From IMG/VR virus record IMGVR_UViG_3300048599_000736, positions 1 to 38,348 of that record: DNA of 38,348 nucleotides. The stretch is one strand, 5' to 3'. The first letter of the stretch is position 1. The number at the start of each line of letters is the position of its first letter. The notes under the pieces are model-generated. The model did no database searches and was not told the origin of the DNA. It saw only the letters and a program-made list of their open reading frames with translations. Below are positions 1-14,488 of this stretch, one piece after another. The position numbers and the translations under genes were made by a program. The stretch comes from a virus (Duplodnaviria > Caudoviricetes).

Positions 1-1314
1 TTAAGCGGCCCTCCGGGGTTCCGATCTGACGGTGCGCAGGTCGGCGACCAAATCTGTGAGCCCCGCTGTCCGCAACCGGATGTCGGCGCCGTCGGGGCTG
101 ACGTCGACCCGCTCCACGAGCAACTGCACGATCCGCGCCTGCTCGGCGGGGAACAGCTCATCCCAGAGGGGATCGAGCCGCTCCAGCGCCTCGCGGACGT
201 CGACCTCCGAGATTTCGCCCATCGATTTCGCTGCGCGCCATGTGCGCACGATAATCTCAGGGGTGCGCAGCAAGCCGCGCAACTGGTCGACGACCGCGCT
301 CTCGATCTCGGCCGCCGGAACCCGCCGCACGGTGCAAGCCTCGGCATCACGTTTCAGCACATCGGTGGAGACGTAATAGCGATAGAGCTTGCCGCCCTTG
401 CGCGTGTGGGCCGGCGTCATCGCCCTGCCGGTCGGCCCGAATATCAGGCCCTTGAGCAAAGCCGGCGTCTGAGCCCGGGTATGTGCGGCTCGTGCGCGCG
501 GGCTCTCGCGGAGAATCCCGTGCACCCGATCCCAGAGGGCGCGATCGATGATGGCCTGATGCTCGCCCGGATAGGCCGCGCCCTTGTGCACGGCCTCGCC
601 CACGTAGACCCGGTTGTTGAGCAGCTTATAGAGATAGCCTTTGTCGACCAGCTTGCCCCGCTTGCCAGTAATGCCTTCTGCCCTGAGCGCGCGCACCAGG
701 GTGGTTGCCGAGCCTATCTTGGTAAAGCGCTCGAAAATAATTCGAACGGTCGCCGCCTCGGCTTTGTTGATGACGAGCTTGCGGTCCTTGACGTCGTAGC
801 CGAGCGGAACGAAGCCTCCCATCCACATGCCCTTCTTGCGGGAGGCGGCAAACTTGTCGCGAATACGCTCGCCGATAACCTCGCGCTCGAACTGCGCGAA
901 GGAGAGCAGGATATTGAGCGTCAATCGTCCCATCGAGGTGGTGGTGTTGAATGACTGCGTGACGCTGACGAAAGTGACATTGTTGCGATCGAAGATTTCG
1001 ACGAGCTTGGAAAAATCCATCAGCGCGCGGCTGAGCCGATCGATTTTGTAAACCACGACCACGTCGACCCGCTGGGCCTCGATATCGGCAAGCAGTCGCT
1101 GCAGCGCCGGACGCTCGAGCGTTGCGCCGGAAATACCGCCGTCGTCGTAGCGGTCGGGAACAAGCAACCAGCCCTCAGCCTTTTGGCTTGCGATGTAGGA
1201 CTCGCAGGCTTCCCGCTGAGCGTCGAGTGAGTTGAACTCCTGCTCCAGGCCCTCTTCGCTGGACTTGCGGGTGTAGACCGCGCAGCGGAGCTTGCGGACG
1301 ACCGGCTTCTTCAT
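1..1314 (-). CDS. Large serine recombinase / integrase (resolvase + recombinase domains)
   Basis: N-terminal catalytic motif AVYTRKSS...SLDAQR, VVVYKIDRLSR, SFAQFEREVIGERIR, GFVPLGY, LLNNRVYVGE, HQAIID. Confidence 0.95.
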   Translation of the reverse strand: MKKPVVRKLRCAVYTRKSSEEGLEQEFNSLDAQREACESYIASQKAEGWLLVPDRYDDGGISGATLERPALQRLLADIEAQRVDVVVVYKIDRLSRALMDFSKLVEIFDRNNVTFVSVTQSFNTTTSMGRLTLNILLSFAQFEREVIGERIRDKFAASRKKGMWMGGFVPLGYDVKDRKLVINKAEAATVRIIFERFTKIGSATTLVRALRAEGITGKRGKLVDKGYLYKLLNNRVYVGEAVHKGAAYPGEHQAIIDRALWDRVHGILRESPRARAAHTRAQTPALLKGLIFGPTGRAMTPAHTRKGGKLYRYYVSTDVLKRDAEACTVRRVPAAEIESAVVDQLRGLLRTPEIIVRTWRAAKSMGEISEVDVREALERLDPLWDELFPAEQARIVQLLVERVDVSPDGADIRLRTAGLTDLVADLRTVRSEPRRAA

Positions 1315-1757
1315 GACGATGCCCGCCGATTCTTGAGGCCAAAAAAGAGGAGCCCATTCCAGCGCGTACCGGTGATCGCGCGCGCGATGGCGGAGAGCGA
1401 TTTGTACGGACGGCCTTGGTATTCAAAATCCTCGTCACGCACCGTGACGCAGTGCTCAACGCCCTGATACTCGCGAATGAGCCGCGTGCCGGCGATCGGG
1501 CGATCCTTGGCTGGTTGGCGACGTCGCGCTGGATCCCCGCCGTCGAGGTCTTCGGCGATGGCCGCGAGCCGCTCGATCGTCTCGCGCTTGAGCCCGCCGT
1601 AGGCCAATTCCTGGATGCGGTACGCGAGCCGGTGTTCGAGGAAGCGCCGGTTGTAGGGCGGCGGTTCGGTTTCGAAGAGATCGCGCCATTGCTGCTTGAG
1701 TTTGAGAATGGGAAGGGCGTTCAGGGCCGCCACCCGCGCCAGAACTGTATCGGTCAA
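1311..1757 (-). CDS. DUF2924 family protein (candidate integrase accessory / directionality factor)
   Basis: LKQQWRDLF...LAYRIQELAYGGL...GTRLIREYQG...YKSLSAIARAITGTRWNG signature. TTG start, 4-bp overlaps with both neighbours. Confidence 0.85.
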   Translation of the reverse strand: MTDTVLARVAALNALPILKLKQQWRDLFETEPPPYNRRFLEHRLAYRIQELAYGGLKRETIERLAAIAEDLDGGDPARRRQPAKDRPIAGTRLIREYQGVEHCVTVRDEDFEYQGRPYKSLSAIARAITGTRWNGLLFFGLKNRRASS

Positions 1758-1963
1758 TCCGAGCCTCCATGAGCCTTGAGGGCGTCGGCATGACCGCTCT
1801 GGTGGCCGGCACAGTCGAGCGAACTTTCTCCGGAGTGGGCAGATAAAGGTGTGGACTTCCGCGCCTTCAACCGCATGAGGCCGGCCGCCAAAATCTCGGC
1901 GATCTCGTCGAGCCGCTCGGCGGCGGAAAGGCGTTCTGGATCAATCGGATTCGGGAGTTGCAT
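1754..1963 (-). CDS. Small conserved protein, first gene of the integrase operon
   Basis: 69 aa PNPIDPERLSAAERLDEIAEILAAGLMRL, typical of DUF2924/recombinase operons. Stop overlaps the DUF2924 start. Confidence 0.7.
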   Translation of the reverse strand: MQLPNPIDPERLSAAERLDEIAEILAAGLMRLKARKSTPLSAHSGESSLDCAGHQSGHADALKAHGGSD

Positions 1964-1999
1964 CGCAAGCCTTGGATTGGGGGCACCCTCCCCAGGCCT

Positions 2000-2026
2000 C
2001 TACCCACGGGGCTCATAATCCGTCCC
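2000..2026 (-). promoter_or_regulatory. Putative phage-sigma promoter for the excision operon (GGGACGG-N14-GGGTAG)
   Basis: Minus strand reads GGGACGG ATTATGAGCCCCGT GGGTAG, ending 37 nt before the ATG at 1963. Same motif and spacing at 4974 and 13932. Confidence 0.75.
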
Positions 2027-2069
2027 AAAACGATGGTTTTGAATCGACTCTCGGCCGAATCGAGCTTAA

Positions 2070-2084
2070 GAACGTAAAGTGAAC
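2070..2084 (+). promoter_or_regulatory. Alphaproteobacterial LexA (SOS) box GAAC-N7-GAAC
   Basis: GAAC GTAAAGT GAAC just upstream of the first rightward gene. Overlaps a possible sigma70 promoter TCGACT(2044)-N17-TAAGAA(2067). Confidence 0.8.
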
Positions 2085-2112
2085 GAGCATGAGGCAGATA
2101 TGGGCGGCTGAG

Positions 2113-3357
2113 ATGGCCAAAAACCTGAAGAAGTTCGTCAATCCGAAGTTCACGAGGACAACCGACCTCGGCCTTCTCCGCCGGCTCCTGGAGCGCCACC
2201 AGGCCGACCTCCACGGGTTCGACCTCGCTGTATTCGGGCGGCAGCCCGACGAGGCGCGCTGTACGATTCAGAACTTCTTTGCAGGCCCCGAGGACAATTA
2301 TCCCGAGGGCCTGGTCGCCGATCTCCATCGCATCGCCGAACTCGGCAATGCCAACGGGCTGCAACTTCTTTTAGAACAAGCTCGGCGGCGCGGCGTGCAG
2401 ATCGCCCCTGCCGACGACCGCGACGATACTGCGGAGGCGAAGCAGGACCCGAAGCACGTCGCGCTCAGAATGTTTCTGGATCAGCCAGCGGTATTTGACG
2501 CCGCGGCCGATATGCTGAGCTATACGACCCTATCCTCCTTCACCGAGTTCGCGGGCGGTGAAGAGGGGATCGAGGCGCAAATCGACGACGAGACTCGACA
2601 AGCCTTTCAGCGTGAAGCCGAGCGTCTCTTCGAGGCCGACCTTCGTGGACGCTATTGCCGGGTCGGATGGTACGACGATGACGACGAGATCAATGTTGTC
2701 GTCACCCATGGCGCGCCGCTGAAGACGACCGAAATCATCGAGGCTGGCGCCGATCGCGTGATCAGCTTCCGGGAGGCCGAGCACGCGGTTCTGTCCTATG
2801 CCGCAACCACCGGTCGGCTGAAGGTTGGCGGTTTCGCCAAAGCGCGTCGCGCGGAGCTTGCCGAGATTTTTGCGGCCTCGATGCTCAAGCGGCCCCGGTT
2901 CTTCGCGGCTCCCGACGCCCAGAACCTCTACACTCTGGTGCCGGTCGAGCGTGCCGGCTTCGGATTCACCTTCAATCACGCATTCGATCCCGGCATCCGC
3001 CGTGTGCAGATTGTCGAGGTTCAGGCGGACCGCCTCGGCACCGACCCGCGGTCCGGCGAGACGCGCACATTCTGGTCCCATGTGACCCGCGATGGCCGTG
3101 ACAATGCGCTCGCGCGATTGGGCGAGGGGACGCGCGGCATTACTTTCGGGGCCGATTGGCGGCTTAACCACATGGTTATCCGTGCGCACATCGATGTCGG
3201 TGGATCAAAACCGGCACGAGTGACGGTGAAGCTCAAGCCGCCCGACACGGCGATGTTCAAGCGCCATCGTTTCGAGGGGCGCATCATGGCGCTCTTGCGC
3301 CGCAATGGACTCGTCAATGACAGACTGCCTGGCAAGGCTGCTGTTGCGGCTGAGTGA
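2113..3357 (+). CDS. Hypothetical protein (~414 aa), first gene of the SOS-box-controlled regulatory operon
   Basis: Long ORF with typical coding pattern. ATG at 2113 (MAKNLKKFVNPKF), alternative ATG at 2089. No recognisable catalytic motif. Confidence 0.8.
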   Translation: MAKNLKKFVNPKFTRTTDLGLLRRLLERHQADLHGFDLAVFGRQPDEARCTIQNFFAGPEDNYPEGLVADLHRIAELGNANGLQLLLEQARRRGVQIAPADDRDDTAEAKQDPKHVALRMFLDQPAVFDAAADMLSYTTLSSFTEFAGGEEGIEAQIDDETRQAFQREAERLFEADLRGRYCRVGWYDDDDEINVVVTHGAPLKTTEIIEAGADRVISFREAEHAVLSYAATTGRLKVGGFAKARRAELAEIFAASMLKRPRFFAAPDAQNLYTLVPVERAGFGFTFNHAFDPGIRRVQIVEVQADRLGTDPRSGETRTFWSHVTRDGRDNALARLGEGTRGITFGADWRLNHMVIRAHIDVGGSKPARVTVKLKPPDTAMFKRHRFEGRIMALLRRNGLVNDRLPGKAAVAAE

Positions 3358-4294
3358 GGCGGGCGAACCCGCAATACTCTGGGGACGCCAGGCCAAGCCC
3401 TATCTCGGCCGGGATTTTGAGCGTCTTATCGGCCAAGGCATCCTCGTCGAGGACGCACCGGCGACCGAGTGGGATGTCTGCTCTTCGTGCGAGTGCGATC
3501 TCGACGTTCGCCCGATCCAGCAGATCGATGGCCGTCATGTCGCGGCCTGTCCACTCGATCAAAAGAGCGACCTCATCTTGGATGCAGAAGATCTGAGGAG
3601 CTTTCGCATCGGCGTTCTTGCGCTCGTGCGCGAGATTGCGTCTGCCTCTGGCTTCTCGAACGAACCCTCGGAAACCGCAGCCGGTATCTGGAATTTGGGC
3701 CTAACGCCATCAAAGCGAGCCGCCTTCCTCGCACCATCGAGGACGGCGGCATTGCAGCCGGGTCTTGTCGGGGCGCTTCGAATGATCGCTCGGTCTTCGC
3801 CGATCACGATGATTGCGCCGGCATTATCGGCAGCCGAGCAACTGCGCTTCGCTGAAGCGGAAATCCACTTGGTCACGGTGGGTGATGTGATCGCTCCAGG
3901 CGACGGCACCATGCCGTTCGCGATCGACCTGGCGAAGCTGGAGTCGCCGTCGGCATTAGCTCCGCGCCTCGTCATCGTCCGATCGGCAAAATCCGTAATG
4001 CTCGATGGTGTCTCCCGCGCGCTCTCCGACCAGTCGTTCGAACTTCTTTGCCTGCTTGCTGAGCGGGCGTCGACCGATAATCCTTTCGCCTCAACTCGTG
4101 ATGTCGAAGCCCGGATCTGGGGCGACTCCATTCATCGAGTCTCACGCGCCGCTCGCGATGTCGTTCGAGAGCTTCGTGATGCGCTCGCAGCGGACGTTTC
4201 AGAACCCAATGCAGTTCGCCAGCTCATCGAGAACAAACGCAATCGCGGCTGGCGTCTGACGCTGACGGCGGACAAGATTGACCTCCGCGCCTGA
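3317..4294 (+). CDS. Putative transcriptional activator: N-terminal Cys cluster plus C-terminal OmpR-like winged helix
   Basis: CSSCEC...ACP cluster. C-terminal LSDQSFELLCLLAE...VEARIWG...RDVVRELRDAL...LIENKRNRGWRL matches a Trans_reg_C-type wHTH. Overlaps the upstream gene by 41 bp. Confidence 0.75.
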   Translation: MTDCLARLLLRLSEAGEPAILWGRQAKPYLGRDFERLIGQGILVEDAPATEWDVCSSCECDLDVRPIQQIDGRHVAACPLDQKSDLILDAEDLRSFRIGVLALVREIASASGFSNEPSETAAGIWNLGLTPSKRAAFLAPSRTAALQPGLVGALRMIARSSPITMIAPALSAAEQLRFAEAEIHLVTVGDVIAPGDGTMPFAIDLAKLESPSALAPRLVIVRSAKSVMLDGVSRALSDQSFELLCLLAERASTDNPFASTRDVEARIWGDSIHRVSRAARDVVRELRDALAADVSEPNAVRQLIENKRNRGWRLTLTADKIDLRA

Positions 4295-4305
4295 CACCAA
4301 GCTCT

Positions 4306-4343
4306 CCCACACTTCCCCCACGACATCCCCACGCCAAGCCCAC
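4306..4343 (+). repeat. Four CCCAC direct repeats with exact 11-bp period (putative wHTH operator)
   Basis: CCCAC at 4306, 4317, 4328 and 4339, between the wHTH gene and the sigma gene. Confidence 0.8.
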
Positions 4344-4405
4344 CAAGCGGGGCGGGGCGGTCGGCATCCTGCGGTCATCAACAGCGATGACCGAGGCCTT
4401 GACCG

Positions 4406-4975
4406 ATGTCGATTTTCCGATCCGATCTGCAGATCGTCCAGCATGAAGCCGACATTGCGGCCCGCCGCCTGATCCGCCAGCTGCGTCTTCCCTACGACGA
4501 TCTCGCCGACCTTCGTCAGGAGTTCCTTCTCGACCTGTTTGCTCGTCTCTCCGCCTTCGATTCCGAGCGCGGTTCGCTCGGCGCGTTCGCCGGTATTGTC
4601 ATGACGAACAGGGCGACCCGAATCGCGCACAAAGTGAAACGCGACCGCCGGCTCTATGGCGCCGTGCCGGCCTCACTCGACGCAACCTTGCCCGATAGCG
4701 ACGGCGCCACGCGCGGCGATCTCGTTGCCGAAGAGGACGGTCTCGCGGCCTACCTCGGTCAGCGGGTGGGCGCTTTCGCCGAGGTCGAGCACCGACTCGA
4801 CGTCGAGCGTGGCCTCGGCACCCTCGATCCGAATGACGGCGCCCTCTGCGCCGCGCTTTCCAGGACGACCATCGATCGGCTTGCGCGCGGTGGTCGTGGG
4901 GCACGGAGCAGCCTCTATCGCCGCGTGAAAGACATCCGTCTCGCTTTGCTCGCCGTCGGCCTGAGGGCCGCGTGA
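4406..4975 (+). CDS. Sigma-70/ECF-like RNA polymerase sigma factor
   Basis: Region 2-like DLRQEFLLDLFARLSAFDSERGSLGAFAGIVMTNRA and C-terminal HTH TIDRLARGGRGARSSLYRRVKDIRLAL; 189 aa. Confidence 0.7.
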   Translation: MSIFRSDLQIVQHEADIAARRLIRQLRLPYDDLADLRQEFLLDLFARLSAFDSERGSLGAFAGIVMTNRATRIAHKVKRDRRLYGAVPASLDATLPDSDGATRGDLVAEEDGLAAYLGQRVGAFAEVEHRLDVERGLGTLDPNDGALCAALSRTTIDRLARGGRGARSSLYRRVKDIRLALLAVGLRAA

Positions 4976-5000
4976 GACGGTTCAGCCGCGTGGCGAGTAG
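4974..5000 (+). promoter_or_regulatory. Putative phage-sigma promoter for the replication operon (GAGACGG-N14-GAGTAG)
   Basis: GAGACGG TTCAGCCGCGTGGC GAGTAG, overlapping the sigma gene stop and ending 10 nt before the ATG at 5010. Confidence 0.75.
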
Positions 5001-5009
5001 GAGCCAATC

Positions 5010-5351
5010 ATGATCAGCACCATCACCAAGCTACCGAGCGTCCGTCTGCGGATCAACGAAACCGACCTGTGCGGCTGGATTGGGCAGGCGGCTCCCGGCG
5101 ATGTCCTGGAGTATTACCGCGGCTTTCTCGCACTGGACACGTTTTCGCATGGGACGCGCCTTCCCGAGCGCGACCGCGCGGAGCTCACCCGACTGGCGCG
5201 CCGCGCCTGGTGGGCCGGCGAGCAGAAGCTGATCCACCTCGTTCAGCGCCGCCACGGTCCCGACGACTACAGCTATCTCGCCATCGCGCGCTCGAAGCCG
5301 AAGACGGTTCCGGCCTCGCTGTCATCGCTGCTGTTGGCGGAGGTCGCGTGA
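5010..5351 (+). CDS. Conserved phage hypothetical protein
   Basis: LCGWIGQAAPGDVLEYYRGFL...LIHLVQRR...YSYLAIAR; GGAG upstream; first gene of the replication operon. Confidence 0.75.
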   Translation: MISTITKLPSVRLRINETDLCGWIGQAAPGDVLEYYRGFLALDTFSHGTRLPERDRAELTRLARRAWWAGEQKLIHLVQRRHGPDDYSYLAIARSKPKTVPASLSSLLLAEVA

Positions 5352-5409
5352 TGGGCCCGCACCTCGCCAAGCCGAGATTTCACCTCAGCATCAACGAAGA
5401 GGTTTCCCG

Positions 5410-5703
5410 ATGACCACATCAGTTGCAGTGACCGCGCTGCGCAAGCGCCACATCTGGCTCGAAGCGCTGCCGGACATCATTGCCATTCCGGCGCTCGAAG
5501 CGCGGCAGCGTGAGGCCTGCGTCAAAGCGATGGAGGATGCCACGCTCGACGACGTCGCGTTCGCGATGCTGGTGACGGAGGCGGAATTCAATGCCGTCGG
5601 CGACCGGCTGCATGCGTTGCGCAAACTCTACGGTCTTGCCCGGCAGGCCGGTGCGCTCGGCGCCGACCGCGCGGTCGATGCGATCTCCGAGGGAGGCCGC
5701 TGA
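5410..5703 (+). CDS. Hypothetical protein
   Basis: 97 aa, GAGG RBS, TGATG overlap with the next gene. Confidence 0.7.
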   Translation: MTTSVAVTALRKRHIWLEALPDIIAIPALEARQREACVKAMEDATLDDVAFAMLVTEAEFNAVGDRLHALRKLYGLARQAGALGADRAVDAISEGGR

Positions 5704-6536
5704 TGGCACTGCGCATCATCACGGTCGATCAGCGGCTCGCCGAGGCCCACACCAAGACCACGATGGCGATCTTCGGACCTTCCGGTGTGGGCAAGACCTC
5801 GCTGCTCAAGACCCTGCCACCGGCGGAGACGCTCTGCATCGATCTGGAAGCGGGCATGAAGTCGGTCCAGGACTGGCCCGGCGACAGCATTCCCGTTCGC
5901 AGCTTCGCCGATGCTCTCGATGTCGCCTGCCTGGTCGGCGGCGTCGATCCGGCAGCCGACGAGAAGACCTTCTTCTGCGAAAGCCATTACCGGCATCTCG
6001 GCGACACCTATCCCGACCTCGTCCGCATGATCGCGGGCAAGCGCATCATCTTTGTGGACTCCATCACCGATCTCACGCGGCTCGCCATGGCCTGGGCAAA
6101 GACGCGGCCGGAAGCGCAGTCGGAGCGGACCGGCAAGCCTGACACCCGCGGCGCTTACGGCCTGCTCGCGCGCGAAACCATCGGGCTCCTCAAGCACCTG
6201 CAACATGTGCCGGGCCGCACCGTGATTTTCGTCGGGATTCTGGACCGCGTCACCGACGAGTTCAACCGCATCACCTGGCAGCCGCAGATGGAGGGCGGCA
6301 AGGCCGCCCGCGAGCTCCCCGGCATCGTCGATCAGGTGATCTCCATGAGCCGGTTTACGGCGGACGGCGACACCTGGCGTCACGAGCCCGATCGCGGCGA
6401 GGTGCGCCGCCTCGTCTGCCAGTCGGCCAATCCGTTCGGCCTGCCGGGCAAGGATCGCTCCGGCCGCCTCGACCTCACCGAGCCGCCCGACCTCGGCGCG
6501 CTGCTCCGCAAGATCAACCAGACCAGCAGAGGATGA
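5703..6536 (+). CDS. AAA_24 / Sak4-like phage ATPase (recombinase-type)
   Basis: Walker A GPSGVGKT, IDLEAG, Walker B IIFVDSIT, ELPGIVDQV, GKDRSGRL. Confidence 0.85.
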   Translation: MALRIITVDQRLAEAHTKTTMAIFGPSGVGKTSLLKTLPPAETLCIDLEAGMKSVQDWPGDSIPVRSFADALDVACLVGGVDPAADEKTFFCESHYRHLGDTYPDLVRMIAGKRIIFVDSITDLTRLAMAWAKTRPEAQSERTGKPDTRGAYGLLARETIGLLKHLQHVPGRTVIFVGILDRVTDEFNRITWQPQMEGGKAARELPGIVDQVISMSRFTADGDTWRHEPDRGEVRRLVCQSANPFGLPGKDRSGRLDLTEPPDLGALLRKINQTSRG

Positions 6537-7279
6537 CCACCATGTTCGACATGAACGATGCCGAGCCGCAGAAGACCGGCGAACTCATTCCCGACGGCAC
6601 CTTCGCCAAGGTGACCATGATCGTCCGCCCGGGCGGGATCGACGGCCAGAGCGAGATCGACCAGGCCCTGCTCAAGGCGCCCAAGGATCCCACCAGCGAC
6701 GTGCGGATGCTCGACTGCGAGTTCACCGTGGCGGAGGGGCCGCATGCCAAGCGCAAGTTCTGGCAGATGTTCACGGTCCAGGGCGGCAAGGTCGACGAGA
6801 ACGGCGTCTCGATCGCCTGGAAGATTTCGAAGAGCACCTTCCGCGCCATGATCGATAGCGCGCTCGACCTCGACCCGCAGGATATGAGCGAGGCGGCGAA
6901 GCAGAAACGCGTCCTGCGCGGACTTGCCGATCTCTCGGGCATCGCCTTCGTCGCCAAGATCAGGATCGAGGCCAGCGAGGACTCCCGCTACGGCGACCAG
7001 AACCGCCTCGACCGCGTGGTGCTGCCGACCGAGAAGGAGTGGAAGCTCATCATGGACGGCAAGGACGTGCCGGCAAGCCCAAGTCGCTCGCGTGGGGCCG
7101 GCGGCAAAGCCGCTGCCGTGCAGCCAGCCTGGAACCAGGCCACGGGACCGGGTGGACAGCCGGCTGCCGCGCAACCGCGATCTCCGCAGACGTCCGGCGC
7201 GCCCGCCTGGTCGCAACCGTCATCCGGCACTGGCACACCGGCAGCAAAGTCGGCGGGTCCGGCTTGGCTCAACGGTTGA
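6533..7279 (+). CDS. SSB-like (DUF669-type) single-stranded DNA-binding protein
   Basis: Follows the Sak4-like ATPase. LIPDGT...LDCEFTVAEGPHAKRKFW...FVAKIRIE...NRL core with a low-complexity P/A/Q tail. Confidence 0.7.
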   Translation: MTTMFDMNDAEPQKTGELIPDGTFAKVTMIVRPGGIDGQSEIDQALLKAPKDPTSDVRMLDCEFTVAEGPHAKRKFWQMFTVQGGKVDENGVSIAWKISKSTFRAMIDSALDLDPQDMSEAAKQKRVLRGLADLSGIAFVAKIRIEASEDSRYGDQNRLDRVVLPTEKEWKLIMDGKDVPASPSRSRGAGGKAAAVQPAWNQATGPGGQPAAAQPRSPQTSGAPAWSQPSSGTGTPAAKSAGPAWLNG

Positions 7280-7282
7280 GCC

Positions 7283-7516
7283 ATGACCGACGACGAGTGG
7301 CAGGCGCACGTCACGCATGAAGCGGCCAAGGCGATCGGCGAATGGCTCGAAGGAAGAGGACGGCTTCACCAGCCAATCCGCTCTTTGACCATGCCCGAGA
7401 TCGAGGCCATGGCGCAGAACGCCATCAGCCGATTCATCGTGCTGGCGTCGCACCGGATCGCGGAGGCACCCGACCAGCCCGGGTCGCAGAAGCTCTCGAT
7501 GCTGCTGTTGGGCTGA
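7283..7516 (+). CDS. Hypothetical protein
   Basis: 77 aa, in operon, compact helical sequence. Confidence 0.7.
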   Translation: MTDDEWQAHVTHEAAKAIGEWLEGRGRLHQPIRSLTMPEIEAMAQNAISRFIVLASHRIAEAPDQPGSQKLSMLLLG

Positions 7517-7857
7517 GAGCCTGCACCCTCTGCAGTCGCGAAGCTCGCGGCTTCTACTACACCCACCAGCTGCGTCCCGACCGCTACCCGACTTTCGCCT
7601 TCTGCTCGCTGCGCTGCCTCAATGCCGGCGCCGCCATCGCTAAGAGGAACCACGGCGTGATCGACAAGACCGAGTTGGAGATACAAGCGATCAAGGCGGC
7701 GCGGCGCAATTTTGCGGAGGTGCTGACCGAGCTCGGACTGATGGCGCCGTTCCACGACCGAACGCCCGAAGAGATCGATCGCATCATCGAGGCCTGCATC
7801 GACGGCTTCCAGAACGCCATGCGCCGCGAAACGCTCAACGACGATATTCCATTTTGA
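7513..7857 (+). CDS. DUF6511-like protein with N-terminal Cys4 finger and C-terminal DDIPF tail
   Basis: CTLC...FCSLRC then IDKTELE...NDDIPF. Start is either CTG 7513 (overlapping the upstream stop) or GTG 7657 (GAGGA RBS). Confidence 0.7.
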   Translation: MRACTLCSREARGFYYTHQLRPDRYPTFAFCSLRCLNAGAAIAKRNHGVIDKTELEIQAIKAARRNFAEVLTELGLMAPFHDRTPEEIDRIIEACIDGFQNAMRRETLNDDIPF

Positions 7858-7865
7858 GGCCGGTC

Positions 7866-8651
7866 ATGGATATCGTCGACCTCAACCACGGCTCGGGATT
7901 CACTTACGGCCGCGCCCCCGCGCCCCCGCCGATCGGCGAGCGCATTGACGCCCTCGTTGACGGCGCGCTCACGGCAGAGCGTGCCGTCATGCCTGCGCGC
8001 GATTATCTCGGCGCGTCCCGCATCGGCGAACCGTGCGCACGCCGGCTCTGCTACGAGTTGATGCAGGTCCCGGTCGATCAAGGCGCCGATTTTTCCGGGC
8101 GCATGCTGCGCATTTTCGAAGCCGGCCATCGTTTCGAGGAAATGACCATCCGGTGGCTGCGGCTCGCCGGGTTCGATCTGAGAACGCACAAGCGCAATGG
8201 CGAACAGTTCGGCTTCTCGGTCGCGGGCGGCCGCCTCCGCGGCCACATCGATGGCGTCATTGTCGGCGGGCCCGACGTCGGCATCGAGTATCCGGCCCTG
8301 TTCGAGCACAAGGCGCTCAAGTCCTCGTCCTGGCAGGACACCGTCAAGCACGGAGTCAAAGTTTCGAAGCCGATCTACTGGGCGCAGGTCCAGGTCTACA
8401 TGGCCTACCTCGCGGTCGAGAACACGCTGTTTGTCGCGCTCGACAAGGACACGCAGGCGCTCCGCTACGAGCCCGTCTCCTTCGATCCGCCGGCAGCCCA
8501 GGCGCTCTCCGACAAGGCCGTCGCCGTGATCCGCTCAGTCGAGGCTGGCGAGCTGCTGCCGCGCATCTCCGACGACGCCGGCTTCTTCATCTGCACGTTC
8601 TGTCCGTACCGCATCCGCTGCCACGCGCTCGCACCGGGAGGCAATGCATGA
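7866..8651 (+). CDS. PD-(D/E)XK exonuclease, Cas4/AddB-like with Fe-S cysteines
   Basis: RDYLGASRIGEPC, GHIDG, FEHK, YWAQVQVYM, CTFCPYRIRC. Confidence 0.85.
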   Translation: MDIVDLNHGSGFTYGRAPAPPPIGERIDALVDGALTAERAVMPARDYLGASRIGEPCARRLCYELMQVPVDQGADFSGRMLRIFEAGHRFEEMTIRWLRLAGFDLRTHKRNGEQFGFSVAGGRLRGHIDGVIVGGPDVGIEYPALFEHKALKSSSWQDTVKHGVKVSKPIYWAQVQVYMAYLAVENTLFVALDKDTQALRYEPVSFDPPAAQALSDKAVAVIRSVEAGELLPRISDDAGFFICTFCPYRIRCHALAPGGNA

Positions 8652-9952
8652 CCATCACCCTCTCCGAGAGCCAGCGCGCGGCGATCACCACGGTCAAGGA
8701 CTGGTACGAGAACCGCACGAAGGAGCAGCAGGTCTGCCGCGTGTTCGGCTATGCCGGCGCCGGCAAGAGCACGATCGTCAAGTATGCGATCGAGGAACTG
8801 GGACTCTCGACCTCGGGAACCGAGTCGAAGATCGGCGACGTGCTCTATGCCGCCTTCACCGGCAAGGCCGCCCTGGTGATGACCCGCAAGGGTACGCCCG
8901 CTTCCACCATCCATTCCCTCATTTACCGCGTCTCCGAGGCGAGCCCGCAGGAGATCGAGAAGCTCAAGGCAGAAGTCGCCGAGATCCAGGCGAAGCTGCC
9001 ATCGCTCGGAGTAGCCGAACGCCTGTTCGAGGAATCCCGCCTCCGGTCGCTCGAGCTGCGACTGAAGGACGTGCACAAGCCGCGCTTCGTGCTCAATTCC
9101 GAGTCTGTCCTGCGCGATGCCAAGCTGCTCGTCCTCGATGAGGTGTCCATGGTCGGCGCGGAGATGGCGCGCGACCTCCTTGCCTTTGGCAAGCCGACCC
9201 TCGTCCTGGGCGATCCCGGCCAGTTGCCGCCGGTCAAGGGCGAGGGCGCCTTCGACACCGACAAGCCCGACGTGCTCCTGACCGAAGTGCACCGGCAGGC
9301 CGGCGACAGCGCCGTCATCCGGCTTGCGACCTGGGCCCGCGAGGGAAAGCCGATTCCCTACGGCGAGCACGATGAATTCGTGTGGAAGATGCGCCGGTCT
9401 GACGTGGACGCATCTGGCTTGCTCCGGGCCGGCCAGGTGATCTGCGGGCGCAACGCCACGCGCATGCAGCTCAACCTTGCCATGAAGCAGGCCGCTGGTT
9501 TTACCGCAGCCTATCCGGCCGGGGCCGGCGAGAAGCTGATCTGCCTGCGCAATCGCAACGACATCGGCCTGGTCAACGGCATGTTCGTGACCCTCGACGA
9601 CATCGAGGAGGACGGCGACGAGATCGCCTTCAAGGCCTCGATCACCACCGAGGATGGGCACAAGGTTGGTGGCGAGACCAACGGCAAGCGCGAGCGCTTC
9701 CGCATCTATCGCGGCCACTTCGACGATCATCTGTCGCCCGATCCCGATCGGGAGCGGCGCGACCATCATAAGAAGCGCACCCTGATCGAGTGCGTCTGGG
9801 GCTGGGCCATCACGTGTCACAAGTCGCAGGGCTCCCAGTTCGAGAACGTCGTGGTGTTCGACGACGGGCTCGGGCGCACGCCGCAGGACCGGGCGCGCTG
9901 GCTCTACACCGCCATCACCCGCGCCGAGCGCGGCCTCGTGCTGCTCGATTGA
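8648..9952 (+). CDS. SF1B Dda/RecD-like DNA helicase
   Basis: GYAGAGKS, AFTGKAA, DEVSM, GDPGQLPPV, EVHRQ, AITCHKSQGSQF, YTAITRA. ATGA overlap at 8648. Confidence 0.92.
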   Translation: MTITLSESQRAAITTVKDWYENRTKEQQVCRVFGYAGAGKSTIVKYAIEELGLSTSGTESKIGDVLYAAFTGKAALVMTRKGTPASTIHSLIYRVSEASPQEIEKLKAEVAEIQAKLPSLGVAERLFEESRLRSLELRLKDVHKPRFVLNSESVLRDAKLLVLDEVSMVGAEMARDLLAFGKPTLVLGDPGQLPPVKGEGAFDTDKPDVLLTEVHRQAGDSAVIRLATWAREGKPIPYGEHDEFVWKMRRSDVDASGLLRAGQVICGRNATRMQLNLAMKQAAGFTAAYPAGAGEKLICLRNRNDIGLVNGMFVTLDDIEEDGDEIAFKASITTEDGHKVGGETNGKRERFRIYRGHFDDHLSPDPDRERRDHHKKRTLIECVWGWAITCHKSQGSQFENVVVFDDGLGRTPQDRARWLYTAITRAERGLVLLD

Positions 9953-9959
9953 GGCGCCA

Positions 9960-12902
9960 ATGCTCGACCTCAACGACGCGCAACCTGTATGGCCGGTCGA
10001 GCGGTTTGACCTCGATGCCATCGTCTCGCGTCTGCGCGATAGCGCCGAGCAATGGGTTCTGCGGCTGTTCCCGAATGGCCGGCGGGTCGGCGATGAATGG
10101 CGGCTCGCCAATATCCGGGGCGCCGCGCCGCGCAAGAACGGCTCTTGCGTGATCGCGCTTGCCGGCGAGCACGCTGGCGACTGGATTGACTTCGACGGCG
10201 GCCATGGCGGTGGACCGCTCAGCACATTGGAGAATGCAACGGGGCTCAGCGGACGCGAGCTGTTCGCCTACGCGGCCGATCTGACGAAAACGGGCGCGCA
10301 GCCGAAACGGTCCGCCGCCAAGCCCTCGTCCAAGCAGGCGGATCAGGCCCGCGAGATCGAACACATCCTGTCGAAGGCTGTGCCGATCGCAGGCACGTTG
10401 GGCGAACGATATCTCGCGTCGCGTGGGATACCGGCTCCGGACTGCGCCGACCTGCTATTCCACCCGGACCTGACGCATTGGGAAAGCCGGCGTGGCTTTC
10501 CGGGCCTGGCAGCCGTGGTACGGGACGTTGCCGGCAACCGCATCGCGCTCCACCGCACCTATCTCGCCGACGACGGCACCGCCAAGGCGCCGGTCGATAA
10601 CCCGCGCAAGATGCTGGCCTCGATCGCAGGCGGCGCCGTGCGACTTGCCGATCTGACTAAGGATGGCGTCATCGGTCTCGCCGAGGGCATCGAGACGGCG
10701 CTCTCGGTGATGACTGCCTGCGCGCGCCTGCCGGTCTGGGCAACGCTCTCAGCCTCTAACCTGGAACAGGTGGCTCTGCCCACCGAAGCGCGGAAGGTCG
10801 TGCTCCTTGCCGACCACGACGCCTCCGGCGCCGGCGCGCGCGCGGCCGAGACTGCTGCCGCCCATCTGCACGCCGAGGGCCGGCGGGTCTTCATCGCCAT
10901 ACCGCCCAAGGAGGGCGACGATTTCAATGACCTGCTGCTGCGCAACGGCGTCGATGCCGTGCGCAGAATCGTTGAAGCCGCGGTCGAATGGGGCGCCCCC
11001 AGCAACGACGACCGGGTGATTCTCGCCATCGACAGCGGCACGCATAGGCCGATCGGCTTTGGGCAGTCGGATCGCCCCCGACCGCAGTTGCGCGCCGACA
11101 ATGGCGATCTGGCGCGCGCGGTGTCGCAGGCGTGGCAGGTTCTGCTCGCCGCCAATGATCCGCCATGGATGTTCCGCGCCGCCGGATGCCCGACCTGGGT
11201 GGTGCGCGACGACGACGGCCTGCCCATGGCGAAGCCCCTTACCGAGGACCGCCTGCGTCCGGTGCTCGCCCAGCTCGCCGATTGGCGAAAGCTTAATCGC
11301 AACGGCGAACTCGTCCCGGCCCATCCACCATTGGCGGTGATCAAGTCGATCCTCGCCACGCCCGATCCGGCGCTTCCGGTGCTGACAGGCATCGTCACGA
11401 CGCCCGTGTTCGGCCGCGAGGGCGAGCTCATCACCGAGCCCGGCTACCATCCGGCTGCGCGCCTGCTCTACGACCCGCCCAAGGGCTTCGTCCTGCCGCC
11501 GGTGCCGGCGAAGCCTACGCAATCCGACATCGCCGTTGCGCGGGCTCTGCTGCTCGACGATCTCCTGGGAGATTTCCCGTTCATCGGCGAAGCCGAGCGC
11601 GCGCATGCGCTTGCGCTCCTTCTCGTCGGCTTCGTGCGCGCCATGATCGACGGGCCGACCCCGCTGCATCTGGTCGAGAAACCGACCCAAGGCACCGGCG
11701 CGACCCTGATGGTGGACGTGATGTCGGTCGTCGCGATCGGCTGCCGGGCGAGCGTCATGGTCGAAGGCAGCGACGACGAGGAATGGCGCAAGCGCTTGAC
11801 CGCCAAGTTACGACAGATTCCGTCCGTCGTCCTGATCGACAATCTTCGCCGGCCGCTCGACTCCTCGGCGCTCGCTGCCGCGCTCACCGCGCCGTTTTGG
11901 GAAGACCGCATCCTCGGTATCTCGGAAACGACGCGGCTGCCGATCCGCTGTATCTGGATCGCCACCGGCAACAATGCCGAGTTCTCGGGCGAGATGGCGC
12001 GCCGGCTCGTGCGCATCCGGCTCGACGCCCGCGTCGACCAGCCCTGGCGCCGCAGCGGCTTCCGTCATCCCGATCTCATGGGCTGGGTGCATGCCAACCG
12101 GGCAGACCTCGTCGCCGCTTGCCTGACGCTATGCCGCGCCTGGATCGCGGCCGGCATGCCGCGCGGCCTCAAGAACATCGGCAGCTTCGAAACCTGGGCC
12201 GCCGCGATGGGCGGGATGCTCGACGCGATCGGCGTTGCAGGGTTCCTTGGCAATATCGACGAGATGCTCGAAGCCTCCGACGGCGAAGGGGCGGTCTGGC
12301 GCGTGTTCGTCGGACAATGGTGGGACCGTTTCGGCACCGCCGAGGTCGGTACCAGCGGGCTCTACGAGCTCGCCGTCAATTGCGAGCCGCCGCTTCCGCT
12401 CGGCACCGGCGGCGACCGTTCGCAGCGAACCCGGCTCGGCAAGGCGCTCGCGCGCATGCGCGACCGGGTGTTCGACATCGCCGGACTCAAGGCGCGCATC
12501 CGGGCGATTGGCGTCTCGCACCAGGCCCGCCGCTGGCAGCTCGCCCTCGAAGGGGAACACGGGGAACGTGGGGAACGTTTTCCGGACCCGTCCGAAGCAG
12601 AAAAAGGGGAACGTGGGGCCTCTCTCGACCAACGTTCCCCCCAACGTTCCCCGGCCTATCCCATTGATCAAGAAGGGCTCGGGGAACGTGGGGAACGTGG
12701 GGAACGTTTTTCCGACCCCCGCGCGTGCGCGCGCGTACACAATAATAAAGAAGAGCAAACACGTTCCCCACATTCCCCACATTCCCAAAACGCCGACAAT
12801 TCAGAGGCTTGTGCCGGGGAATATGGCGGGGAAGGTCGCCAAGCACGTTCCCCACATTCCCCGCTCGCCGATTCCCCCGATTGGCTGAAGGGGGTGCCGT
12901 GA
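9960..12902 (+). CDS. TOPRIM primase fused to SF3/P4-alpha-like helicase domain
   Basis: YLASRGI, ALHRTYL, LAEGIETALS, LADHD, DFNDLL (TOPRIM). C-terminal GTGAT, LIDN, WIATGNN, RRLVRIRL. Confidence 0.88.
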   Translation: MLDLNDAQPVWPVERFDLDAIVSRLRDSAEQWVLRLFPNGRRVGDEWRLANIRGAAPRKNGSCVIALAGEHAGDWIDFDGGHGGGPLSTLENATGLSGRELFAYAADLTKTGAQPKRSAAKPSSKQADQAREIEHILSKAVPIAGTLGERYLASRGIPAPDCADLLFHPDLTHWESRRGFPGLAAVVRDVAGNRIALHRTYLADDGTAKAPVDNPRKMLASIAGGAVRLADLTKDGVIGLAEGIETALSVMTACARLPVWATLSASNLEQVALPTEARKVVLLADHDASGAGARAAETAAAHLHAEGRRVFIAIPPKEGDDFNDLLLRNGVDAVRRIVEAAVEWGAPSNDDRVILAIDSGTHRPIGFGQSDRPRPQLRADNGDLARAVSQAWQVLLAANDPPWMFRAAGCPTWVVRDDDGLPMAKPLTEDRLRPVLAQLADWRKLNRNGELVPAHPPLAVIKSILATPDPALPVLTGIVTTPVFGREGELITEPGYHPAARLLYDPPKGFVLPPVPAKPTQSDIAVARALLLDDLLGDFPFIGEAERAHALALLLVGFVRAMIDGPTPLHLVEKPTQGTGATLMVDVMSVVAIGCRASVMVEGSDDEEWRKRLTAKLRQIPSVVLIDNLRRPLDSSALAAALTAPFWEDRILGISETTRLPIRCIWIATGNNAEFSGEMARRLVRIRLDARVDQPWRRSGFRHPDLMGWVHANRADLVAACLTLCRAWIAAGMPRGLKNIGSFETWAAAMGGMLDAIGVAGFLGNIDEMLEASDGEGAVWRVFVGQWWDRFGTAEVGTSGLYELAVNCEPPLPLGTGGDRSQRTRLGKALARMRDRVFDIAGLKARIRAIGVSHQARRWQLALEGEHGERGERFPDPSEAEKGERGASLDQRSPQRSPAYPIDQEGLGERGERGERFSDPRACARVHNNKEEQTRSPHSPHSQNADNSEACAGEYGGEGRQARSPHSPLADSPDWLKGVP
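12552..12877. repeat. Iteron array (~17 copies of GGGGAAYRT, both orientations): putative replication origin
   Basis: Forward copies at 12552, 12561, 12570, 12606, 12681, 12690, 12699, 12816, 12828. Reverse copies at 12632, 12644, 12761, 12770, 12779, 12845, 12854, 12869. A-rich patch at 12737-12760. Confidence 0.8.
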
Positions 12903-12945: not shown

Positions 12946-13263
12946 ATGAGCCGGCAGCGTCTTCCCAATCGCCGGCCCAGCCTCACGACCCGGCTCGTGC
13001 ACGACTGCCGGTCGTACTCGGTGACGGTCGGTTTCGATCCGAACACCGGCCGCATCGGCGAAGTGTTCACGCACGGCGCCAAGGTCGGCTCCGCCATGGA
13101 CGGCATCCTAGACGATGCCTGCATCGCGCTGTCGCTCCTGCTTCAGCACGGCGTCGAGCCCACCGCGCTCGCTGCGAGCATGGGGCGGCTTGGCGACGGC
13201 AAGACGCCCGCCTCGATCATCGGTGCGCTCGCCGACCTCATCGCCCGCGAGGCGCAGCCATGA
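12946..13263 (+). CDS. Stand-alone TSCPD-like (class II RNR C-terminal) domain protein
   Basis: RQRLPNRRPS...VTVGF...GEVF...KVGS...ALSLLLQHGV...SIIGALAD; GGAGG RBS. Confidence 0.7.
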   Translation: MSRQRLPNRRPSLTTRLVHDCRSYSVTVGFDPNTGRIGEVFTHGAKVGSAMDGILDDACIALSLLLQHGVEPTALAASMGRLGDGKTPASIIGALADLIAREAQP

Positions 13264-13460
13264 GGTGGACACCCAAAGGATACGGCGGAGAGCGGCGCCC
13301 TCCCGACGACGTCAAGCGTGAGGGTTGGCACGAGCACGGCATCCTGGTGGTGAGCGAGGATGATCATCGTCTCACCTGGTCGGAGCGTGAACTGATCCGG
13401 CAACTCGGGGGAAAACTTTACGGCAAACGCTCGACGAACAAGGAGGCGTACCATGGCTGA
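13260..13460 (+). CDS. Conserved phage hypothetical protein
   Basis: MRWTPKGYGGERR...GW...LYG; ATGA overlap. Confidence 0.75.
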   Translation: MRWTPKGYGGERRPPDDVKREGWHEHGILVVSEDDHRLTWSERELIRQLGGKLYGKRSTNKEAYHG

Positions 13461-13890
13461 TTGGACGCCGGCTTGCGTGGAAGCGCGGCTTCACGAAGCG
13501 GCGGACGTGATGGCGCGTCTGCCGGAGGTGCGCGTGCAGGGTTACTTCAACCTGTGGCCGAAGGTTCTCCACGAGTTCAGCGACCTCGTCGGGCAAGAAC
13601 CAGTGCGGTTGAAGCGCCCGCCGCCATTGCCCGACGCCATCAGCCGCATGGAGGAGACGCTCGGCTGGCTGCGCTGGCTGGAAGCCGAAGACGCAAAGCT
13701 CGCCTGGGCGCGTGCCGAACGCACACCATGGAAGCCGATTTGCTGGCGCTTTGGCATCGCGCCGGCAACGGCAAAGCGCCGCTGGCAATACGCATTGAGC
13801 CTCATCGCCTGGAAGCTCAACGGCCGCTTTGTCGGCACGAAGACATCGCGGCGCGCGTTCATGGAACGCGCTCGCATTCTGTCAAGATGA
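13453..13890 (+). CDS. DUF6362 family protein, probable late transcription regulator (C-terminal HTH)
   Basis: WTPACVEARLHEAA...VQGYFNLWP...AISRMEE...PWKPICWRFGIAPATAKRRW. AGGAGG RBS. Occupies the lambda Q-like position. Confidence 0.75.
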   Translation: MADWTPACVEARLHEAADVMARLPEVRVQGYFNLWPKVLHEFSDLVGQEPVRLKRPPPLPDAISRMEETLGWLRWLEAEDAKLAWARAERTPWKPICWRFGIAPATAKRRWQYALSLIAWKLNGRFVGTKTSRRAFMERARILSR

Positions 13891-13897
13891 AATCGCC

Positions 13898-13937
13898 GTG
13901 TGAGCCAATTTTGTGTGAGCCACTTTTATGCGAGACG
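13898..13937 (+). repeat. 15-bp-period direct repeats GTGTGAGCCA (putative late-regulator operator)
   Basis: GTGTGAGCCA at 13898 and 13913, degenerate ATGCGAGACG at 13928, separated by T-rich spacers. Confidence 0.7.
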
Positions 13938-13958
13938 GAATCGGCCGACGAAGTGTAG
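13932..13958 (+). promoter_or_regulatory. Putative phage-sigma late promoter (GAGACGG-N14-GTGTAG)
   Basis: GAGACGG AATCGGCCGACGAA GTGTAG; third copy of the motif, upstream of cos and the late operon. Confidence 0.75.
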
Positions 13959-14011
13959 TTTCGCGGCAGGCTCGCGAGAGGCGCGCGCGACGATCGGCAG
14001 AGCCGAGTCGC

Positions 14012-14206
14012 GGGTCCTCCCTGGCGGAAATGGTATGCGGGGGGCAATGGCCCGGAATTTCGCTACAGACAGCCGCAAAATCTGAGTTACCAGTTACCGG
14101 CTTCACCCACGGTCGTGCGGTGATAAACCCGTCGAAATGCGAAGAAATTTGCGCTTTCCGCATTGGTAACCTGGCGCGTGGTAATCGCGCGGTGGTTACC
14201 ACGCGC
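14012..14206 (+). other. Lambda-like cos packaging site (cosQ, cosN, cosB-like repeats)
   Basis: GGGTCCT (lambda cosQ sequence) at 14012-14018; 23 nt later GGGCAATGGCCC (14042-14053) then TTTCGCTA, as in lambda. GTTACC/GGTAAC repeats at 14086, 14093, 14165, 14180 (GGTAAT), 14195. Confidence 0.75.
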
Positions 14207-14212
14207 TCGCCG

Positions 14213-14392
14213 CTACTTATCTTTGAGATACGCCTCGACCTTCTTGGCGCTCTTTCCGACTGCGCGGACCGCGCCCGCCAATGCTTGGCCAGACACCCTG
14301 AATTTCTTCTTCCAGTATTCCTTCTCGTAATCCTCGTTCATGTTGATGGTGCTGCGGTCGGGCTCGCCGCGCTTCTTCCGATTGTCGGCCAT
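14213..14392 (-). CDS. DUF3606 family small protein (moron)
   Basis: MADNRKKRGEPDRSTINMNEDYEKEYWKKKFRVS...AVRAVG...V..YL. GAGGAG RBS; TATAAT on the minus strand at 14418-14423. Confidence 0.85.
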   Translation of the reverse strand: MADNRKKRGEPDRSTINMNEDYEKEYWKKKFRVSGQALAGAVRAVGKSAKKVEAYLKDK

Positions 14393-14488
14393 GATGGTCT
14401 CCTCAATGGGGTGGCCGATTATAGCCGACTCATCACGAACATCCATCGCCTCGGGCAGAAACGCAGCGACCCTACATCCGTTAAATCA

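What the first reader, a model, noticed from the sequence alone, without database searches (positions are those of the whole stretch)
1963..5010. Repressor-less lysis/lysogeny switch: host LexA -> two-gene activator -> phage sigma cascade
Seen: no CI/Cro or S24-peptidase repressor is recognisable anywhere in the window. The divergent region instead has a perfect GAAC-N7-GAAC box (2070-2084) before an unknown 414-aa gene and a Cys-cluster/winged-helix gene. These are followed by 11-bp-phased CCCAC repeats, a sigma-like gene, and a bipartite promoter motif repeated in front of all three downstream operons. Known: GTTC/GAAC-N7 is the alphaproteobacterial LexA site. Inference: the prophage is silenced by host LexA; DNA damage releases the activator pair, which switches on the sigma, which then drives excision, replication and late genes. 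I do not recognise this circuit as described for this phage group.
Basis: partly seen in the sequence, partly recalled or inferred. Interest (0 to 1): 0.92.

Follow-up and report, generated by a model that had tools for sequence, protein, structure and literature searches.

The report
Host-LexA-gated prophage activator cascade
This alphaproteobacterial prophage has no recognisable repressor gene but has a conserved host-type DNA-damage (LexA) box in front of two unknown genes, which likely act as an activator that likely switches on a phage sigma-like factor, while distant relatives put their own damage-sensing repressor gene at the same spot.

Summary
The GAAC-N7-GAAC box sits in front of orfA in 115 of 128 related loci (44 of 54 non-redundant), never before control genes, and matches the lexA promoters of 5 of 5 hosts. 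No S24/LexA/XRE repressor was found in the window; no S24 gene in 24 related records. OrfA is predicted to have an RdgC/CENP-N-like fold. OrfB ends in an OmpR/PhoB winged helix; the 11-bp repeats overlap the -35 position of the sigma gene and change type together with OrfB, not with sigma. New here: distant relatives with the same chassis put their own LexA-family gene (22 of 30 loci, often with a different operator) or an XRE plus ImmA-like pair (3 of 30) directly before orfA, so the sensor is exchangeable and the window uses the host's. Weak points: activation, sigma activity and induction are untested; the late-operon promoter copy is intact in only 1 of 8 relatives, so late genes probably need DUF6362. 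Closest known logic: GIL01. Not found in print; this scan noted the pair before on other DNA (e1-4314430).

The parts
1..1314 (-). large serine recombinase (integrase)
   Evidence: PF00239, PF07508, PF13408; phrog_95
1311..1757 (-). DUF2924 gene, shared with AcaML1 and phage WO
   Evidence: PF11149; tblastn
1754..1963 (-). conserved 69-aa gene, first of the leftward operon; function unknown
   Evidence: tblastn hits in related loci; no family hit
2000..2026 (-). leftward bipartite promoter-like motif GGGACGG-N16-GTAG
   Evidence: at most 1 mismatch in 70 of 91 distinct relatives
2044..2049 (+). -35-like TCGACT of the orfA promoter
   Evidence: sequence; recurs in relatives; role inferred
2070..2084 (+). 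alphaproteobacterial LexA box GAAC-N7-GAAC, over the inferred -10/start region
   Evidence: host lexA promoters
2113..3357 (+). OrfA, 414 aa, predicted RdgC/CENP-N-like fold; inferred activator subunit
3317..4294 (+). OrfB, 325 aa, Cys cluster plus C-terminal OmpR/PhoB winged helix; inferred DNA-reading activator subunit
4306..4343 (+). four CCCAC cores at 11-bp phase, last one at the inferred -35 position; inferred OrfB site
4365..4370 (+). weak -10-like CATCCT (CAnnnT in 69 of 79 distinct relatives, 22-27 nt after the last core)
4373..4392 (+). short inverted repeat GGTCATC...GATGACC at the inferred 5' end of the sigma mRNA
   Evidence: sequence; recurs in relatives
4406..4975 (+). sigma-70-like protein, 189 aa (region 2 seen, region 4 not confirmed)
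4974..5000 (+). bipartite motif GAGACGG-N16-GTAG before the replication operon
   Evidence: at most 1 mismatch in 56 of 71 distinct relatives
5010..12902 (+). replication/recombination operon (113-aa gene, Sak4-like, PD-(D/E)XK nuclease, helicase, primase)
13453..13890 (+). DUF6362 gene, candidate late-gene regulator
   Evidence: PF19889; position and adjacent repeats; role inferred
13901..13958 (+). two TGAGCCA repeats (13901, 13916) and the third bipartite motif (13932-13958) before the packaging genes
   Evidence: intact motif in 1 of 8 relatives

Best explanation
This is an integrated temperate phage of an alphaproteobacterium with no recognisable repressor gene, in which a conserved LexA box likely lets the host's LexA keep orfA-orfB silent, and DNA damage would release an OrfA-OrfB pair that likely activates a sigma-like gene whose product likely transcribes the integrase-side and replication operons. 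OrfB's OmpR/PhoB winged helix is inferred to bind the four 11-bp repeats over the -35 region of the weak sigma promoter, with the RdgC-like OrfA as partner. Late genes are probably one tier further down, through DUF6362 at the end of the replication operon. The sensor in front of orfA is exchangeable across the family (host LexA box, element-borne LexA-family gene, or XRE plus ImmA-like protease). Shown: sequences, conservation, domain and fold matches, gene arrangements. Inferred: binding, repression, activation, sigma activity, induction.
For: Box perfect in 115 of 128 loci, 44 of 54 non-redundant, spacer free to vary; 0 of 48, 48, 36, 48, 31 before five control genes; shuffles 0.2%; 28 of 38 in a second, more distant set; 5 of 11 loci of an unbiased class draw. 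Same box in lexA promoters of 5 of 5 hosts; GTTC-N7-GTTC is the published alphaproteobacterial motif (passages of PMC8565304, PMC7987155). No S24 in 24 related virus records, no LexA-like gene in 187 related stretches. Of 30 loci from a phylum draw, 22 have a LexA_DNA_bind+S24 gene directly before orfA and 3 an XRE+Peptidase_M78 pair; cleavage-site and Ser/Lys motifs in 22 of 23; a CCTW-N8-WAGG palindrome in 9 of 22 of their promoters, alpha box in 0 of 22, and the reverse 0 of 54. OrfB: ArlR E 6.6e-9, BaeR Z 13.5, rmsd 2.5, 98 residues. Repeats stay with sigma in 9 of 23 loci that have a cargo insert; repeat type agrees with OrfB helix type in 108 of 108 and changes 2 times on OrfA/OrfB trees against 11 on the sigma tree. 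Left and right promoter copies share variants (353 of 392 against 298+/-5; spacers 182 of 539 against 182+/-10). OrfA-OrfB complex prediction: weak support, 0.50 against best control 0.00 (runs 0.50, 0.03, 0.55; contact agreement at least 0%, partner pLDDT at least 81; the mark was reached by 116 of 157 solved and 2 of 215 mismatched pairs, but at 0.60 or under by only 18 solved pairs and both mismatches).
Against: No expression or binding data. 13 of 128 and 10 of 38 loci lack a perfect box, some with no alternative sensor seen. Repeat/helix agreement has only 2 independent origins, repeats and orfB are linked, the helix rule was written after seeing the data and one locus was relabelled by hand. 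Promoter covariation is not significant in phylogenetically independent pairs. Sigma region 4 is not confirmed (best PDB E 0.028). The late motif is intact in 1 of 8 relatives. The record is about 65% complete; small or divergent repressors would be missed; ImmA-like or XRE genes occur as cargo in a few alpha loci, one (L124) between orfB and sigma. How integrase is made on infection, if LexA silences the cascade at once, is unexplained.
Confidence: 0.62

Rival explanations
1. LexA gates orfA-orfB, but the switch also needs an unrecognised phage co-repressor or immunity factor (a gp7-like small protein, the 113-aa or 69-aa gene, an RNA, or a gene beyond the record's end).
For: GIL01 needs gp7 besides LexA (PMC6182141, abstract and Introduction). 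One box only; conserved small genes of unknown function; record 65% complete; some loci lack the box.
Against: The small genes lie behind the sigma-type promoters, so they should be off in the lysogen (inference). The closest relative adds only about one gene at each end and has no S24 or HTH_3 hit.
Confidence: 0.2
2. OrfA-OrfB is SOS-induced but is not an activator of the sigma gene: it represses, anti-terminates or remodels DNA, or acts at excision/replication.
For: RdgC-like fold points to non-specific DNA binding; OmpR-family domains can repress (general knowledge); a hairpin follows the inferred start.
Against: Repeats end at the -35 position of a promoter with a poor -10, the geometry of PhoB-type activation (recalled); a damage-induced repressor of lytic genes would invert the logic of the LexA, own-LexA and ImmA sensors.
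Confidence: 0.12
3. The pair is an SOS-induced defence or cargo cassette, unrelated to the lysis decision.
For: Weak Atlas likeness to a GAPS4b_N cluster (score 0.78, family on 23% of members); cargo genes insert right behind orfB.
Against: No PADLOC hit; fixed position between integrase module and sigma gene across the family; repeats follow OrfB type.
Confidence: 0.05

Closest known systems
Bacillus thuringiensis tectivirus GIL01 switch (host LexA + gp7; gp6 activator); PMC6182141, abstract and Introduction read
   Same: No dedicated phage repressor; host LexA boxes in phage promoters; a phage activator delays later genes.
   Different: Linear plasmid-like tectivirus; LexA sits on the lytic promoters themselves with co-repressor gp7; activator is a LexA homologue. 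Here an integrating tailed phage has one box before a two-gene RdgC-like/OmpR-like pair and a sigma-like tier.
SetCD/AcaCD two-subunit master activators of SXT/R391 ICEs and IncC plasmids; PrtR-PrtN of pyocins (recalled, no call)
   Same: A damage-sensitive repressor holds back an activator that turns on excision and downstream operons.
   Different: Those use an element-encoded CI-like repressor and FlhDC-like or small activators; OrfA/OrfB folds match RdgC and OmpR/PhoB instead.
LexA-controlled antirepressors of coliphage 186 (Tum), N15, Fels-2; CTXphi (recalled, no call)
   Same: Host LexA box in a prophage promoter couples induction to SOS.
   Different: They keep a phage repressor that the LexA-controlled product inactivates; none was found here.
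Acidithiobacillus phage AcaML1 and Wolbachia phage WO (proposed Symbioviridae; PMC9203015, passages read)
   Same: Large serine recombinase with DUF2924 (46% and 34-37%), lambda-like gpE capsid (57% and 45-47%).
   Different: No OrfA or sigma match in any of 50,697 phage records; AcaML1 has HTH_17 genes and a PIN gene at this place.

Membership tests
Alphaproteobacterial LexA regulon | GTTC-N7-GTTC (GAAC-N7-GAAC) motif in the promoter | tested here: met
   motif from PMC8565304, PMC7987155 passages
Alphaproteobacterial LexA regulon | hosts encode LexA with the same box before lexA | tested here: met
   5 of 5 hosts of relatives; the window's own host is not available
Alphaproteobacterial LexA regulon | LexA binding and RecA-dependent induction | not testable with these tools
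   needs EMSA and induction assays
GIL01-type host-LexA lysogeny | no dedicated phage repressor | tested here: met
   no hit; limited to recognisable families and a 65% complete record
GIL01-type host-LexA lysogeny | gp7-like co-repressor and LexA-homologue activator gp6 | tested here: inconclusive
   no LexA-like profile hit in the window; gp7 itself was not searched
GIL01-type host-LexA lysogeny | linear extrachromosomal tectivirus | tested here: not met
   serine integrase, terminase, portal, tail genes; classed as provirus
Lambdoid CI/Cro switch | phage HTH+S24 repressor divergent from cro | tested here: not met
   the divergent region holds the 69-aa gene and orfA
OmpR/PhoB-family regulators (OrfB) | C-terminal winged-helix effector domain | tested here: met
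OmpR/PhoB-family regulators (OrfB) | phosphorylatable receiver domain | tested here: inconclusive
   no Response_reg Pfam hit; middle alpha/beta domain only Z about 6 to several folds
Sigma-70 family (ECF-like) | region 2 | tested here: met
   39 of 39 aligned members at E 0.01 or better, best 1.8e-8; window protein below the curated cut-off
Sigma-70 family (ECF-like) | region 4 helix-turn-helix | tested here: inconclusive
   no Sigma70_r4 hit; weak SigB/SigA match up to region 3; not folded
RdgC/YejK-like DNA-binding proteins (OrfA) | two-lobed TBP-like fold | tested here: met
   RdgC Z 10.6, rmsd 4.5, 217 residues; CENP-N Z 9.2; no sequence match
RdgC/YejK-like DNA-binding proteins (OrfA) | ring-shaped dimer that binds DNA | not tested
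Symbioviridae / Wovirus (proposed) | nucleotide homology to the WO core, EAM, ankyrins, patatin lysis module | tested here: not met
   protein identity 34-47% only; no ankyrin or patatin hit, lysis by GH108 endolysin

The most novel reading that the evidence does not exclude
A widespread, never-isolated family of serine-integrase prophages runs on a new kind of master activator (RdgC/CENP-N-like OrfA bound to OmpR-like OrfB) feeding a phage sigma, with a plug-in damage sensor; the alphaproteobacterial branch has dropped its own LexA-family repressor and handed lysogeny wholly to host LexA, at least twice, so these phages lysogenise by default and escape plaque isolation.
Probability: 0.4. Interest if true: 0.83.

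Novelty: new variant of a known kind. Interest (0 to 1): 0.72.

Why it matters
Host-LexA lysogeny without a phage repressor is established for GIL01, a plasmid-like tectivirus. Here it would hold for an integrating tailed phage family found in about 1 in 40 sampled alphaproteobacterial genomes (OrfA in 11 of 401) but absent from 50,697 phage records. The family offers a natural series of sensors on one chassis (host LexA, own LexA-family gene, XRE/ImmA), which makes the question of how prophages hand repression to the host directly testable, and it gives a function hypothesis for two unannotated protein families (931 representatives at E 0.001) and a tight three-tier SOS amplifier.

Tried and rejected
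Box as chance: rejected by position-matched controls. CI beyond the window: an S24 gene 40 kb from orfA in one genome is a host gene beside dihydroorotate dehydrogenase, syntenic in two other genomes; the 36 kb fetched there, and two other distal stretches, showed no blastn match to the window, so those elements' right ends were not located. HTH_3 hits in 4 of 24 records: the one examined is a HigBA pair. No OrfA match in phages or plasmids, PDB sequences or named Atlas clusters. DUF6362 has no PDB sequence match. Metagenome scan with the distant alignment found nothing; two further viral scans added nothing new. No RNA holder listed. The CCT-N10-AGG operator resembles a magnetotactic-coccus LexA box as I recall it, but two paper searches found no source. 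Ten paper searches found no description of this circuit; only open-licence full text is searched and no supplementary files were read, where predicted LexA regulon tables could list these boxes.
Full report
The window is a whole IMG/VR provirus record of 38,348 nt, estimated 65% complete, 65% G+C. It runs from a large serine recombinase and DUF2924 on the minus strand, through the region in question, a replication operon, DUF6362, a methylase, lambda-like terminase, portal and capsid genes and tail genes to a GH108 endolysin. The nearest isolated phages by capsid and DUF2924 are AcaML1 and WO; neither OrfA nor the sigma-like protein has a match among 50,697 phage records, and AcaML1 has other regulators at this place. 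Named relatives are nearly all Alphaproteobacteria (titles; a few metagenome bins carry other labels).

Observation. The box alone is not unusual in 38 kb (3 matches, mean 1.2). No CI, Cro, S24 or XRE hit was found in 45 proteins, in six-frame searches, or with profiles built from relatives' LexA, XRE and ImmA-like genes.

The box. Of 137 sequences (136 loci plus the window), 9 were dropped because the start of orfA was cut off or not located. Of the other 128, 115 have a perfect GAAC-N7-GAAC within 80 nt of the start and 122 have at most one mismatch; after removing near-duplicates, 44 and 49 of 54. The spacer varies. The same test gives 0 of 48, 48, 36, 48 and 31 before five other genes and 0.2% in shuffles. 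In a more distant set (OrfA 26-40% identical; 38 of 42 loci usable) 28 have the box within 200 nt, many at -135 to -163. Five of five hosts of relatives encode LexA with the same box in their lexA promoter, and GTTC-N7-GTTC is the published alphaproteobacterial motif (passages of PMC8565304 and PMC7987155; PMC6473078 passages mention GTTC and GAAC groups). The box follows a TCGACT -35-like hexamer and covers the inferred -10 and start. Against: 13 of 128 and 10 of 38 loci lack a perfect box, and for some (L026, L080, L091, L095, L107, L114, L163 group, L192) no other sensor was seen.

Absence of a repressor in relatives. No S24 domain in 24 related virus records; HTH_3 in 4 of 24, the one examined being HigA of a HigBA pair in the cargo region. 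No LexA-like gene in 187 related stretches; XRE-like and ImmA-like hits (5 each) lie outside the place before orfA, one in the cargo slot before sigma. An S24 gene 40 kb from orfA in one complete genome is a host gene.

The sensor is exchangeable. A profile of distant OrfA relatives hit 38 of 401 genomes drawn from the phylum. Of the 30 loci returned, 3 have the alpha box (the centre genome and two more), 22 have a LexA_DNA_bind+S24 gene directly before and in line with orfA, 3 have a divergent or adjacent XRE plus Peptidase_M78 pair, and 2 have neither. A viral locus, L197, has the same lexA-orfA-orfB order. Cleavage-site and Ser/Lys motifs are present in 22 of 23. Their promoters carry CCTW-N8-WAGG in 9 of 22 (15 with one mismatch; shuffles 1.3% and 27%) and never the alpha box, while 0 of 54 alpha loci carry that palindrome. 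In a draw from the class, 11 of 401 genomes matched; of 11 loci besides the centre, 5 have the alpha box, 5 a LexA-like gene (recognised by eye, not scanned; one split), 1 neither. On a quick unrooted OrfA tree the alpha-box loci form one large clade (support 99), and one further alpha-box locus (L253) falls among the own-LexA loci, which suggests a second use of host LexA; direction of change is not established. Three different damage-sensing devices at one position are the strongest argument that orfA-orfB is the SOS output of the element.

The two proteins. OrfA (model pLDDT 79) matches RdgC (Z 10.6, rmsd 4.5, 217 residues), CENP-N/CENP-L (Z 8.5-9.2) and weakly YejK. OrfB (pLDDT 89) has conserved Cys 55, 58, 60, 78 and a C-terminal OmpR/PhoB winged helix. 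The genes overlap and occur together. A complex prediction gave weak support only (0.50 against 0.00; one of three runs 0.03).

The repeats. They stay in front of sigma when cargo is inserted after orfB (9 of 23 loci). Eleven is the commonest spacing (161 of 263) and a CAnnnT hexamer follows the last core by 22-27 nt in 69 of 79 distinct promoters, which puts the last repeat at the -35 position, as for PhoB boxes (recalled). Relatives with another OrfB type have GAGAGG-like units at the same phase; L155 and L156 have sigma 86-90% identical to the window's but OrfB 26-27% and no CCCAC. Repeat type and recognition-helix type agree in 108 of 108 non-redundant loci (3 loci dropped, 1 relabelled by hand, rule written after inspection); the type changes 2 times on OrfA and OrfB trees and 11 times on the sigma tree. 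This shows that orfA-orfB-repeats move as one module; with 2 origins and linkage it does not prove co-evolution.

Sigma and its promoters. Region 2 is seen in 39 of 39 members; region 4 is unconfirmed. The bipartite motif has at most one mismatch in 70 of 91 distinct leftward and 56 of 71 distinct rightward sites (shuffles 21 of 1160; three leftward rows were misplaced in truncated loci). The two copies of one element share variants more than random pairs, spacers do not, but independent-pair tests are not significant. A related CCGACAG-N16-GTA form recurs in 12 of 25 own-LexA loci (shuffles 2.5%). The late copy is weaker: of 15 related stretches 8 had a DUF6362 hit; the motif is intact in 1, degenerate (GAGACAC-N16-YTAG after two TGAGACA repeats) in 4 and not seen in 3. 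The window has two TGAGCCA repeats there. I infer a fourth tier through DUF6362.

Mechanism. Shown: the parts and their conservation. Inferred: LexA represses orfA-orfB (about 0.85); OrfB with OrfA activates the sigma gene (0.7); the sigma-like protein transcribes the leftward and replication operons (0.75); late genes need DUF6362 (0.55). Whole chain to replication about 0.6. Unexplained: how integrase is made on infection, and what gives superinfection control. If LexA alone suffices, healthy cells would be lysogenised by default, which would fit the absence from plaque-isolated collections (inference).

Comparison. It works like GIL01 (PMC6182141, abstract and Introduction read) in using host LexA without a phage repressor, and like SetCD/AcaCD or PrtN (recalled) in releasing an activator, but it is a member of neither. 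It shares a chassis with WO and AcaML1 but fails the Wovirus criteria (PMC9203015, passages). Ten searches found no description in open-licence text; supplements were not read. Verdict: new variant of a known kind, interest 0.72.

Noticed in passing
window 12546-12871: GGGGAACGT direct repeats and their inverted TTCCCCAC copies inside the end of the primase gene; likely replication origin iterons.
   Followed up: no
between orfB and sigma in L003, L005, L007, L010, L032, L071, L121-L136: Cargo slot of 0.8-3 kb; a recurring 237-aa unknown protein and other genes, one ImmA-like (L124). Same-strand cargo would be SOS-induced with orfA-orfB.
   Followed up: partly
L155, L156 against the window: Integrase 89-91% and sigma 86-90% identical but OrfA 37% and OrfB 26-27%: a clean swap of the orfA-orfB-repeat module.
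   Followed up: yes
L170-L185, L193-L195, L253 upstream of orfA: Box 135-163 nt before the start, leaving a long conserved leader that may be a structured RNA or small ORF.
   Followed up: no
window 4995-5012 and relatives: The 113-aa gene starts 8-9 nt after the -10-like GTAG/GTAA, often without a Shine-Dalgarno sequence; possibly a leaderless mRNA.
   Followed up: partly
L137 1039-1743 (G003; similar HTH hits in G002, G004): HigB-HigA toxin-antitoxin moron next to DUF6362.
   Followed up: partly
L196 3052-4572: MqsA/SocA-type antitoxin gene and a small partner, divergent from orfA, in place of a LexA sensor in a distant relative.
   Followed up: no
L199 2757-3245; L198 1540-1910: Distant relatives with an unknown 162-aa gene, or only a near CCT-N10-AGG palindrome, before orfA.
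   Followed up: no
window 13960-14490: Long stretch between the late motif and the methylase with a GGGTCC...GCGGGGGGC segment that recurs in relatives; cos-like by recall.
   Followed up: no
window 12946-13263 and 15725-16006: Stand-alone TSCPD-domain gene and a minus-strand DUF3489 gene.
   Followed up: no
G149, G205, G229, G245, G109: Some genomes hold up to four OrfA-family loci each, mostly of the own-LexA type where examined.
   Followed up: no
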